Below, in pieces: positions 23,467 through 25,387 of a stretch of DNA of 64,000 nt. Every line of letters begins with the position of its first letter. Within the stretch, counting starts at the first letter, position 1. The notes under the pieces are model-generated. The model saw only the letters and a program-made list of their open reading frames with translations. It was not told where the DNA came from and did no database searches. Source of the DNA: the human T2T-CHM13v2.0 reference genome, Homo sapiens. The position numbers and the translations under genes were made by a program. The DNA lies in the NCBI RefSeq assembly GCF_009914755.1, contig NC_060927.1. One strand, written 5' to 3'.

Positions 23467-24276
23467 GATTACATTACCCCAAGTCTCTGGTTTTTGCTCT
23501 GGTTCTATTGAAAGGAACTGACTCCAGCACAGCGAACTGGACATGCAAGTAAGAAACCCTGTATTGACCCATGACGGAATATATAGAGACTCTAGGCAAG
23601 AGCAGAAAATCAGCAATAACATCTAATGAGCCAAACAGCCAATCTTGGCATCAAGTGGGTATAAAACTTGACTGCAGGGCTTCCCTTGCAGATCCAATGT
23701 AAGTAAATAATGATAAAAGTCTTACTTATACTATGCAAATTAAAATAGTATCTAACTTTTTAAGGAAAGACACTTGGAAATATATTTCTATATAATCATA
23801 AAAAGTCAAACTCACACATAAGCCTTCAATTAGCTGATACATTCTTTAAATGATTTTCCAATGCACTAACACCTAGAAGGGAAAAATAAAACTTATTATA
23901 ATAAAAAAGGATGCACATCGTTGAGAAATCAATAGGTAATTTTGTCCATTGATCCCTTCTTTTTTCCTTGCCCCAAGGTGCATGAAAAGAAATAGCTTGA
24001 CAGTGGTTTCCGATTTTTAGATATAATTGCAAATCCTTTAATTCTGGCTTAGGCATAGGCATTTGTCATATTATAGCTAATGTATATTAATATATATTTT
24101 CCTAAATTTACAAAGTAATAATGAGAAAACAAATAAAATACAAAATTTAGGATTTCTTTTACTTTGTCGATTTTGATTTAACAGAATCTCATTCTAAAGA
24201 TTATGAAGACTGACCATATCGGTAATAAATGAACACTGATGTATTTTAATTTAAAAGACATTTGGAGGTTCTTACA

Positions 24277-24332
24277 AATTTTTTTCACTTACATTTAATC
24301 TTCTAATTTTTTTCACTTACATTTAATCTTCT
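24277..24332. repeat. 28-bp perfect tandem duplication
   Basis: aatttttttcacttacatttaatcttct x2. Confidence 0.95.
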
Positions 24333-24725
24333 AAATTATCTTTAATTTTTATGTTGTGGCTCTTTCCTTTTCAAGCTTCAATTCTTTCTCTTACCACCTT
24401 TCTTATTCTTCCATGCCTGGGTCATAGAACTAAATTTACCTGTTCCACAAATGTCATTATCAGTATGTATTTTATTTTAAGCAAGTCCATCTCCTCAGAG
24501 GATTCCCTTGTATCCTGCTAAGCAGGTAAATGTTTGGCTCCCCGAGTTCTGAAAATCACAGGAGTAGGAGACTGGAGGTGTTACCGTCCAGAATGCAGTC
24601 CTTAATCTGAAGCCCTGGATTTCACAATGCACTTTCCATCTGCACTCACAGAAGTCTTATGCCACTAAACTGAATCAGGCTCTTTGATCGTTTATCTTCC
24701 CCTGTGGGCTGCAAGTCTCTAATTA

Positions 24726-25040
24726 TTTGTTTTTTTTTTTTTTTTTTTTTTTTTTTTTGAGATGGAGTCTCGCTCTGTCGCCCAGGCTGGAGCGCAGTGG
24801 CGCGATCTCGGCTCACTGCAAGCTCTGCCTCCCGGGTTCACGCCATTCTCCTGCCTCAGCCTCCCGAGTAGCTGGGACTACAGGCGCCCGCCACCATGCC
24901 CGGATAATTTTTATGTATTTTTAGTAGAGACGGGGTTTCACCGTGTTAGCCAGGATGGTCTGGATCTCCTGACCTCGTGATCCGCCCGCCTCGGCCTCCA
25001 AAAGTGCTGGGATTACAGGCGTGAGCCACCACGCCCGGCC
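24726..25040 (-). mobile_element. Full-length young AluY
   Basis: CpG-rich, long T tract, intact GGCCGGGCG 5' end at 25040. Confidence 0.97.
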
Positions 25041-25387
25041 GGTTCTTACAAATTTTAAATATCCAAGAAACGTAATTTTTATTCTTGTAAGCCATCGCGT
25101 GTAATATGACCAGTGTTTAAAATACCTTATGGTATCTGCAATGACACTTATGAGGCATAAATTTATATAAATGCTTATGTCATGGGTTGAAAACGCAGTG
25201 GTGGGGTCTTAGGATAGAAAATAATACATGCCCTTCATACAAATAAGCTAAGAACAAGTACAGCAGCATGCTGCCTTGAGGAGGGCACTGTGGAGAATAA
25301 CGCAAGAGGAAGGGGCAGAGAGAGCAGACAGTCTGAGCCCACTTCCCAATTTGGCCCAAGACAGGCAGGAAAGGGAGACAGTACAAA

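What the first reader, a model, noticed from the sequence alone, without database searches (positions are those of the whole stretch)
24267..25056. Apparent AluY-mediated 3' transduction of about 440 bp
Seen: the 16-mer ggttcttacaaatttt abuts the Alu 5' end (25041-25056, in a perfect TTTT/AA endonuclease site). Its exact second copy is not beside the Alu tail but at 24267-24282, so 24283-24725 lies inside the TSD. On the Alu sense strand this segment has only one T4 run (AAAA at 24552-24555), which is unusual for such AT-rich DNA, and it ends in a short A run after ATTAAA. Known: Alu Pol III transcripts stop at T runs and normally prime in the A tail, so Alu transductions are rare. Inference: Pol III read-through primed at a downstream A run, or a template switch from another RNA onto an Alu RNA.
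Basis: partly seen in the sequence, partly recalled or inferred. Interest (0 to 1): 0.8.

Follow-up and report, generated by a model that had tools for sequence, protein, structure and literature searches.

The report
Alu copied together with its flank
An Alu element here was copied into place together with about 400 bases of the DNA that lay next to its parent copy 3.6 million bases away, a kind of event that the Alu literature treats as almost never seen, and it lets the parent Alu be named.

Summary
The exact 16-mer GGTTCTTACAAATTTT sits at 24267-24282 and 25041-25056. It brackets a minus-strand, full-length Alu (24759-25040, T29 tail 24730-24758) plus non-Alu DNA.

The non-Alu part has one other copy in the assembly, at chr3:84.30 Mb. 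There it lies directly downstream of a Y-type Alu in the same arrangement.

Homology starts at Alu base 1 and ends after 407 flank bases at ..AAGTGAA. Flank differences are 22 of 407. DNA outside the unit is unrelated.

This is therefore an L1-type retrocopy of one RNA covering the Alu and its 3' flank, with a 16-bp target-site duplication (TSD) at a TTTT/AA site. Template switching is rejected.

The polymerase is open. The 5' end at Alu base 1 favours Pol III. An internal T4 present in both copies, and a 3' end that is not at a T run, favour Pol II. I put this at about 55:35.

The "few T4 runs" argument is not significant. A 28-bp tandem duplication arose later. Outgroup genomes could not be tested. 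A 2024 screen of this same assembly confirmed no AluY transduction.

The parts
24267..24282 (.). Target-site duplication (TSD), copy at the 3' end of the insert in Alu sense orientation: GGTTCTTACAAATTTT
   Evidence: Exact match to 25041-25056 and the only two copies in the window. It is one of only two unique-sequence exact repeats of 16 nt or more at this spacing in the window.
24279..24285 (-). T7 on the plus strand, which is the terminal A7 of the insert on the Alu sense strand. Four bases belong to the 16-mer, two are templated by the source (..GTGAA), and at least one is untemplated.
   Evidence: Read, with the source end point.
24277..24332 (.). Perfect 28-bp tandem duplication (24277-24304 and 24305-24332). 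It spans the last 6 nt of the TSD, the A run and the first 19 nt of the insert, so it arose after insertion.
   Evidence: family D2, 100% identity. The source locus has the unit once and without the TSD part.
24312..24718 (-). Transduced unique DNA, 407 nt. It is homologous to L002 1508-1914 (G000:C3:84299931-84300337, + strand).
   Evidence: One search gave 94% identity over query 30-443. One search counted 22 mismatches in 407 aligned bases with 0 gaps (K2P 0.056). Only two copies were found in the assembly.
24322..24327 (-). ATTAAA on the sense strand, 12 nt before the end of homology. It is also present in the duplicated unit at 24294-24299.
   Evidence: This is weak evidence for a poly(A) site, because 4 such hexamers lie in the 407-nt source flank.
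24552..24555 (-). The only T4 on the Alu sense strand inside the transduced part, a canonical minimal Pol III terminator. It is present in the source at the same place.
   Evidence: window position 24552 and source offset 163.
24719..24729 (-). Degenerate end of the Alu tail, matching the source's degenerate tail plus the source Alu's own 3' TSD remnant.
   Evidence: Alignment and source sequence.
24730..24758 (-). Alu A tail, a pure A29 that is internal to the insert.
24759..25040 (-). Full-length dimeric Alu body of Y type, starting at Alu base 1.
   Evidence: alignment with 7 other near-full-length Alus shows the same first base, and it groups with the Y-type copies; two sub-threshold 7SL (Metazoa_SRP) matches on the minus strand at 24925-25039 and 24757-24904. 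It lies within NCBI's masked stretch 24717-25065.
25041..25058 (.). TSD copy at the Alu 5' end (25041-25056) followed by AA. This is the L1 endonuclease site TTTT/AA on the plus strand.

Best explanation
Window 24283-25040 is an L1-driven retrocopy, made by target-primed reverse transcription, of a single RNA. That RNA began at base 1 of a Y-type Alu at chr3:84,299,605 (+ strand, 3.6 Mb away) and ran through the Alu's A tail and its own 3' TSD into 407 nt of unique downstream DNA. This is an Alu 3' transduction, and it identifies the parent Alu.

Shown:
- The parent-offspring relationship.
- The sharp homology limits.
- The 16-bp TSD and the TTTT/AA nick site.

Inferred:
- The RNA was made by RNA polymerase III from the Alu's internal promoter, because its 5' end is exactly Alu base 1.
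- It read through one T4.
- It acquired a 3' end at ..AAGTGAA with a few A residues, either by cleavage or trimming with oligo- or polyadenylation, or by priming there.
- L1 ORF2p primed at that end instead of in the Alu's own A tail.
- The event is roughly 20-30 million years old.
- A 28-bp tandem duplication of the TSD/insert junction followed.

I give about 0.9 to the structural claim (one RNA, this source, L1 machinery) and 0.55 to the full statement including Pol III.
For: - **Two copies only.** The non-Alu part has exactly two copies in the assembly. The second is at G000:C3:84299924-84300337, at 94% identity.
- **Same arrangement.** At that locus a full-length Alu lies directly upstream in the same relative orientation.
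- **Sharp limits.** Homology begins at Alu base 1 and ends at ..AAGTGAA. The 200 nt outside each end are unrelated: 33% and 31% mismatch, with 58 and 54 gap columns.
- **Continuity.** The alignment runs unbroken through the tail and the source's 3' TSD remnant.
- **Direction.** Only the window copy is bracketed by a repeat, the exact 16-mer at TTTT/AA. The source Alu has its own short flanking repeat, AAAAAGT, at L002 1175-1181 and 1495-1501. Its flank runs on without a break.
- **Consistent divergence.** There are 22 differences in 407 flank bases and 23 in 279 Alu-body bases, 14 of the latter in CpG context.
- **No longer copies.** The source's DNA beyond either end of the copied unit is single-copy.
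- **Start point.** The window Alu starts at the same first base as 7 other near-full-length Alus. No base is shared between the TSD end and the source's upstream flank at the 5' junction.
Against: - A canonical T4 lies inside the copied flank in both copies. Orioli et al. 2011 (PMC3141230, passages read) found T4 read-through products 'very poorly represented' in vitro.
- The copied RNA does not end at a T run. The next T4 in the source is about 100 nt further on.
- The end lies 12 nt after an ATTAAA, and at least one A is untemplated. That looks more like Pol II-type 3' processing, although the hexamer is weak evidence. The base rate is 4-6% of positions in general, and 4 hexamers lie in this 407-nt flank.
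- The terminal A run is only 7 nt, 4 of which may be target DNA.
- Source and offspring lie only 3,612,565 bp apart on one chromosome. The chance of that for a random landing is about 0.0023, and retrotransposition does not explain it.
- The Alu bodies share no private substitution that would tie them together independently of the flank.
- Absence from outgroup species was not tested.
- Halabian et al. 2024 (bioRxiv 10.1101/2024.04.29.591526, whole text read) screened 118,489 full-length AluYs of this same assembly and confirmed no transduction.
Confidence: 0.55

Rival explanations
1. The structure and source locus are the same, but the RNA was a Pol II transcript running through the source Alu in sense, for example an unannotated lncRNA or read-through RNA. 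It was cleaved and polyadenylated 12 nt after the ATTAAA. L1 reverse transcription then happened to stop exactly at Alu base 1, or a Pol II start site happened to lie there. The insert would then be a 5'-truncated processed retrocopy that contains an Alu, not an Alu-driven transduction.
For: - The internal T4 is no obstacle to Pol II.
- The 3' end follows ATTAAA by 12 nt, with at least one untemplated A and no T run.
- Pol III T4 read-through is weak in vitro (PMC3141230).
Against: - Truncation at exactly Alu base 1 is a coincidence of roughly one in several hundred to a thousand (my estimate, no call).
- There is no microhomology at the 5' junction.
- Three earlier hexamers, including an AATAAA, lie in the flank and would have been passed over.
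- The terminal A run is very short for a Pol II poly(A) tail.
- No longer retrocopy of the source's upstream DNA exists.
Confidence: 0.35
2. A DNA-level event, either a local duplicative or templated insertion during break repair or replication, copied 730 bp from 3.6 Mb away on the same chromosome in inverted orientation, with no RNA intermediate.
For: Donor and acceptor lie close together on one chromosome (chance about 0.0023 under random retrotransposition) and are inverted. That is typical of templated repair insertions (recalled, no call).
Against: - One limit of the copied DNA is exactly Alu base 1.
- The insert is bracketed by a 16-bp duplication of the target at a TTTT/AA site.
- It ends in an A run on the Alu sense strand.
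- Together these are the marks of L1 target-primed reverse transcription, and a repair event would have to reproduce all of them by chance.
Confidence: 0.04
3. A template switch during L1 reverse transcription joined an unrelated RNA (the 3' part) to an Alu RNA (the 5' part).
For: Chimeric retrocopies with small Pol III RNAs as the 5' part are known (recalled, no call). The Alu is complete with its tail.
Against: The two parts are already adjacent at the source locus, in the same order and orientation, with homology running through the junction. No second donor is needed or found.
Confidence: 0.02
4. The 16-mer pair is a chance repeat, and the Alu is an ordinary insertion whose own TSD has decayed.
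For: The target is AT-rich. The Halabian et al. screen found that most distant '3' TSDs' were not significant.
Against: The limits of homology to the source locus coincide with the two 16-mers to within the A run. In the whole window the only other exact repeat of 16 nt or more in unique DNA at such spacing is an Alu TSD.
Confidence: 0.01

Closest known systems
L1 and SVA 3' transduction
   Same: A retroelement and its downstream flank are transcribed as one RNA and inserted by L1 ORF2p. The flank ends up between the element's own tail and the 3' TSD, and it maps next to the parent element. All of this is seen here.
   Different: L1 and SVA are Pol II transcripts that bypass a weak poly(A) signal and use a downstream one. 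An Alu is normally a Pol III transcript whose flank is discarded because priming occurs in the encoded A tail. Here priming skipped a 29-A internal tract.
AluSx3-WaluSat composite (Hoyt et al., bioRxiv 10.1101/2021.07.12.451456; section 7 read)
   Same: An Alu with non-Alu DNA between its tail and the 3' TSD is interpreted as Alu-mediated transduction in a catarrhine ancestor.
   Different: That case moved a 64-nt unit, spread to several chromosomes and then expanded as a satellite. Here a 407-nt unique segment went to a single site, with one identifiable parent. The same preprint counted 386 'highest confidence' Alu 3' transductions in CHM13 (its Table S13). I could not see that table, so this locus may already be listed there.
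Alu monomer with a short 3' transduction (Kojima, known to me only as cited in Halabian et al.)
   Same: An Alu-family element carries a piece of its parent's 3' flank.
   Different: That case is a monomer with a short flank. I did not see the original paper.
5'-truncated processed retrocopy of a Pol II transcript
   Same: TSD, TTTT/AA site, and a 3' end shortly after an ATTAAA with an added A.
   Different: The 5' end coincides exactly with the first base of an Alu, and the A run is only 7 nt.
AAUAAA-dependent polyadenylation of Pol III SINE transcripts (T+ SINEs B2, Dip, Ves; abstracts of PMC8466645 and PMC10572872; passages of PMC3575423)
   Same: This offers a way for a Pol III SINE transcript to gain a 3' A tail after a poly(A) hexamer, which would reconcile the Alu-base-1 start with the ATTAAA-proximal end.
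   Different: In T+ SINEs a Pol III terminator follows the hexamer, and signals in the SINE body are needed. Alu is a T- SINE, and no T run lies at this end point. The short TRAMP-type oligo(A) of 4-5 nt described in PMC3575423 is another possible source of the A run.

Membership tests
L1-mediated (target-primed reverse transcription) insertion | Target-site duplication bracketing the whole insert | tested here: met
   Exact 16-mer at 24267-24282 and 25041-25056. Its limits coincide with the limits of homology to the source.
L1-mediated (target-primed reverse transcription) insertion | Nick site resembling 5'-TTTT/AA-3' | tested here: met
   The plus strand reads ...ACAAATTTT/AAATAT at 25053-25058.
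L1-mediated (target-primed reverse transcription) insertion | A-rich 3' end of the insert at the junction with the TSD | tested here: inconclusive
   A7 on the sense strand (24279-24285). Four bases may be target, 2 are templated by the source, and at least 1 is untemplated. This is much shorter than a usual tail.
L1-mediated (target-primed reverse transcription) insertion | Empty orthologous site with one copy of the TSD in species that diverged earlier | not testable with these tools
   No primate genome other than the window's own assembly is held.
Retroelement 3' transduction | Non-element DNA lies between the element's tail and the 3' TSD | tested here: met
   24312-24718 lies between the tail (24719-24758) and the TSD (24267-24282).
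Retroelement 3' transduction | That DNA maps elsewhere immediately downstream of an element of the same family, in the same orientation | tested here: met
   L002 1182-1914: Alu, tail and flank are contiguous. This was the only other copy found in the assembly.
Retroelement 3' transduction | Homology is confined to element plus flank, so it is not a segmental duplication | tested here: met
   The 200 nt outside each end are unrelated. The source's outer flanks are single-copy.
Retroelement 3' transduction | The transcript is driven by the element's own promoter (for Alu: Pol III, internal A and B boxes) | not testable with these tools
   Supported only by the 5' end at Alu base 1. No expression or occupancy data are available here.
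Pol III transcription unit | The RNA 3' end lies at a run of four or more T with no such run inside | tested here: not met
   A T4 lies inside the flank at source offset 163, in both copies. The end at offset 407 is not at a T run, and the next T4 is at offset 508.
Alu (dimeric, 7SL-derived SINE), Y subfamily | Full-length dimer with 7SL-related arms | tested here: met
   282-nt body aligned from base 1 with 7 other Alus. Two Metazoa_SRP matches on the minus strand scored 60.1 and 45.1 bits, below the gathering score of 70, as expected for an Alu.
Alu (dimeric, 7SL-derived SINE), Y subfamily | Subfamily-diagnostic positions of AluY | tested here: inconclusive
   Both copies group with the window's Y-type Alus and differ from its two S/J-type ones at several blocks. 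No reference consensus library was available, so the label Y rests on recalled diagnostic positions.
Template-switch chimeric retrocopy | The two parts derive from RNAs of separate loci | tested here: not met
   Both parts are adjacent at one source locus.

The most novel reading that the evidence does not exclude
This is a genuine Pol III-initiated AluY 3' transduction in the human reference, with its parent Alu identified by the transduced flank. The literature I read says such events 'never' occur (PMC3412727), had 'not been reported' (PMC4862182), or could not be confirmed in this very assembly (Halabian et al.). It would show that an Alu read-through RNA can be reverse-transcribed from a 3' end 400 nt beyond a 29-A tract. 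It would also suggest that current screens miss such cases. Those screens require a poly(A) tract at the 3' TSD, judge candidates by T4 position, and accept TSDs as short as 5 nt. In the boldest form, the Pol III read-through RNA was cleaved and polyadenylated after ATTAAA, as in T+ SINEs, which has not been described for Alu.
Probability: 0.5. Interest if true: 0.65.

Novelty: new member of a known kind. Interest (0 to 1): 0.55.

Why it matters
Parent-offspring pairs of Alu elements are almost never identifiable, because Alu copies normally carry no flanking DNA. The search for Alu 'source genes' has been blocked by exactly this (PMC3412727, passage read). A clean pair gives three things:
- A dated example of a once-active AluY source locus and its sequence context.
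- A test case for how L1 ORF2p chooses its priming site when an RNA carries a long internal A tract.
- A positive control for transduction screens of T2T assemblies, which disagree widely. The count is 386 high-confidence Alu cases in the 2021 preprint and none confirmed among AluYs in the 2024 preprint.

The event has no evident functional consequence. It sits in an intron of an uncharacterised lncRNA, according to the hub's annotation.

Tried and rejected
- **Scarcity of T4 runs.** I tested it as a sign of Pol III read-through and rejected it (shuffle P = 0.71; 12.7% of windows).
- **ATTAAA as proof of a poly(A) site.** I downgraded this. The base rate is 4-6%, and 4 hexamers lie in the 407-nt flank.
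- **Private shared substitutions in the two Alu bodies.** None were found. The window Alu is in fact closer to another Y-type Alu at 51257-51530 (94.2%) than to its parent (91.1%), as expected if the parent was near consensus when copied.
- **Further offspring, or longer or shorter transductions from the same source.** None were found with the flank, the DNA beyond its end or the DNA upstream of the source Alu. This is at the sensitivity of a tool that skips very common words.
- **Reverse direction (window as parent).** Rejected, because only the window unit is bracketed by a TSD. The repeat finder did not list the source Alu's AAAAAGT repeat, so I read it directly.
- **Published version of Hoyt et al.** Not held under the DOI or the PMC id I tried. 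The bioRxiv supplements, Table S13 of the 2021 preprint and the tables of the 2024 preprint, are closed, so I cannot say whether this locus is already catalogued or was among the 633 or 24 candidates.
- **Canine retrotransposition paper (PMC13141329).** It deals with LINE-1 transductions only.
- **Literature on Alu transduction.** Two searches returned 117 and 23 papers. Of those listed, only the 2024 preprint treats it systematically.
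Full report
**1. The observation**

Reading 24100-25250 shows a minus-strand Alu. Its 5' end (GGCC...) is at 25040. Its body runs down to 24759, and its tail is a pure run of 29 T on the plus strand (24730-24758). Eleven bases of degenerate tail follow at 24719-24729.

The 16-mer GGTTCTTACAAATTTT abuts the Alu 5' end at 25041-25056 and is followed by AA, so the plus strand reads TTTT/AA. Its only other copy in the window, even allowing two mismatches, is at 24267-24282. 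Nothing resembling it lies beside the Alu tail.

To judge chance, I listed every exact direct repeat of 16 nt or more spaced 300-4500 bp in the window, which gave 26 blocks:
- 14 are poly-T.
- 2 are TA/TG microsatellite.
- 1 is an Alu-Alu match.
- 7 belong to two pairs of dispersed repeats.
- 2 lie in unique DNA. One is the ordinary TSD of the Alu at 1412-1684, and the other is this pair.

Shuffles of the segment give a mean of 1.07 such runs, with P(1 or fewer) = 0.71. Of the 443-bp windows sampled across the 64 kb, 12.7% have 1 or fewer.

**2. The source locus**

I searched the window's own assembly with 24283-24725. It returned the segment itself and one other place, G000:C3:84299924-84300337, on the opposite strand, at 94% identity over query 30-443 (2 candidates, both scored).

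At that place (locus L002) a full-length Alu lies directly beside the matching DNA, in the same relative order and orientation as in the window. The alignment of the two regions shows:
- Homology starts exactly at the first base of the Alu.
- It continues through the body, the A-rich tail and a short degenerate stretch.
- It then runs through 407 nt of unique DNA and stops at ..AAGTGAA (L002 1914, i.e. chr3:84,300,337).

Counts:

| Region | Aligned | Mismatches | Notes |
|---|---|---|---|
| Alu body | 279 | 23 | 14 in CpG context; 3 gap columns |
| Flank | 407 | 22 | no gaps; K2P 0.056 |
| 200 nt outside the 5' end | 171 | 57 (33%) | 58 gap columns; unrelated |
| 200 nt outside the 3' end | 173 | 53 (31%) | 54 gap columns; unrelated |

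The source's DNA beyond the end point and upstream of its Alu is single-copy. I found no other offspring and no larger duplicated block.

**3. Direction and mechanism**

Only the window unit is bracketed by a repeat. The source Alu has its own short flanking repeat, AAAAAGT, at L002 1175-1181 and 1495-1501. I read this, because the repeat tool did not list it. The source flank continues without a break. The chr3:84.30 Mb locus is therefore the parent and the window copy is the offspring.

These features together are the signature of L1 target-primed reverse transcription of one RNA spanning the Alu and its 3' flank:
- A 16-bp duplication of the target.
- A nick site reading TTTT/AA.
- A start at Alu base 1.
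- An A run at the far end on the Alu sense strand.

That is a 3' transduction.

A DNA-level copy would have to imitate all of these features by chance. I keep it at about 4% only because donor and acceptor lie 3,612,565 bp apart on one chromosome. The chance of that for a random landing is about 0.0023, and I cannot explain it.

**4. Later change**

A perfect 28-bp tandem duplication (24277-24304 and 24305-24332) covers the last 6 nt of the TSD, the A run and the first 19 nt of the insert. Because it includes target DNA, it arose after insertion.

**5. Age**

The flank divergence is 0.056 between the copies, from 22 substitutions. A Poisson range of about 14-33 substitutions follows. With a recalled catarrhine neutral rate of about 1.0-1.3e-9 per site per year, this gives roughly 20-30 million years, with wide limits of about 13-41. 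This is an inference, not a tool result.

The two Alu bodies share no private substitution, and both group with the Y-type Alus of the window. That fits a parent that was close to its subfamily consensus when copied. Two 7SL-like arms on the minus strand confirm the Alu and its strand.

The offspring's internal tail is still a pure A29, while the parent's has decayed to AAT/AAAT repeats. This is unusual for that age, and I only note it.

**6. Which polymerase?**

For Pol III:
- The RNA's 5' end is exactly Alu base 1, the same first base as in 7 other near-full-length Alus.
- There is no microhomology at the 5' junction.
- The terminal A run is very short, unlike a Pol II tail.

Against Pol III:
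- A canonical T4 lies inside the copied flank in both copies, at source offset 163 and window 24552-24555.
- Orioli et al. 2011 (PMC3141230, passages) found T4 read-through products 'very poorly represented' in vitro.
- The RNA did not end at a T run. The next T4 is about 100 nt further on.

At the 3' end the offspring has A7. Two of these bases are templated (..GTGAA), four may be target, and at least one is untemplated, because the source continues GGGAATAATG. The end lies 12 nt after an ATTAAA. That is weak evidence, since 4-6% of positions in these sequences have such a hexamer 10-30 nt upstream and this flank holds four.

Possible origins of the end are:
- Cleavage and polyadenylation. 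For Pol III SINE transcripts this is known only in T+ SINEs (abstracts; PMC3575423 passages).
- Short TRAMP-type oligoadenylation of a trimmed RNA (PMC3575423).
- Priming without a tail.

Weighing these, I put Pol III initiation at about 0.55. I put a Pol II run-through transcript truncated by coincidence at the Alu start at about 0.35.

**7. Comparison with what is known**

The library I could search contains the following statements:
[quoted passage not shown] 2012, PMC3412727, passage).
- Halabian et al. 2024 (bioRxiv 10.1101/2024.04.29.591526, whole text) screened 118,489 full-length AluYs of this same assembly. They flagged 633, found possible sources for 24 and confirmed none. They cite only an Alu monomer case (Kojima) and the AluSx3-WaluSat composite.
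- An earlier preprint partly by the same authors counted 386 highest-confidence Alu 3' transductions in CHM13 (10.1101/2021.07.12.451456, section 7).

I could not open the supplementary tables of either preprint, so I cannot say whether this locus is listed in one or was discarded in the other.

The 2024 pipeline asks for a poly(A) tract before the 3' TSD, accepts TSDs from 5 nt with one mismatch, and validates candidates by the position of T4. A case with a 7-nt A run, an internal T4 and a later 28-bp duplication could plausibly fall out. That is my inference.

**8. Verdict**

An Alu was copied with 407 nt of its parent's flank, and the parent is identified. It is a new and unusually clean member of a rare, disputed kind.

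It remains open whether it is Alu-driven in the strict sense of Pol III transcription. No function is implied.

Noticed in passing
window 24277-24332: A perfect 28-bp tandem duplication spans the TSD/insert junction, so it arose after the insertion. Whether it is polymorphic in people is unknown.
   Followed up: partly
window 24730-24758 versus L002 1462-1507: The offspring's internal Alu tail is a pure run of 29, although the flank divergence suggests tens of millions of years. The parent's tail has decayed into AAT/AAAT repeats.
   Followed up: no
window 24283-25040 and G000:C3:84299605-84300337: Parent and offspring lie only 3.61 Mb apart on the same chromosome, in opposite orientation. The chance of this is about 0.0023 if landing sites were random. 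I have no explanation.
   Followed up: partly
window about 25380-25500: This stretch is not in NCBI's list of masked repeats of 100 bases or more, but it matches many loci across the genome at 82-94% identity (2979 first-look candidates, 39 scored hits besides itself). It is an interspersed repeat that is not listed as masked.
   Followed up: no
window 1384-1401 and 1684-1701: An exact 18-nt direct repeat brackets the Alu at 1412-1684. It is an ordinary, intact Alu TSD and served as a comparison.
   Followed up: partly
window 45147-45452 vs 47059-47371; 59921-60197 vs 61804-62081: Two pairs of dispersed direct repeats, each about 1.9 kb apart, show several exact blocks of 17-41 nt. The family was not identified.
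   Followed up: no
window 24779-24906 and 24990-25041: Sub-threshold Rfam matches to mir-1268 and mir-3135 lie inside the Alu. I read them as matches to Alu-like sequence in those models (recalled, not checked), not as miRNA genes here.
   Followed up: no
L002 2191-2490: Two further Alu pieces in the opposite orientation lie downstream of the source flank. They give a run of 51 T on the source Alu's sense strand about 826 nt past its tail, which would be a very strong Pol III stop.
   Followed up: no
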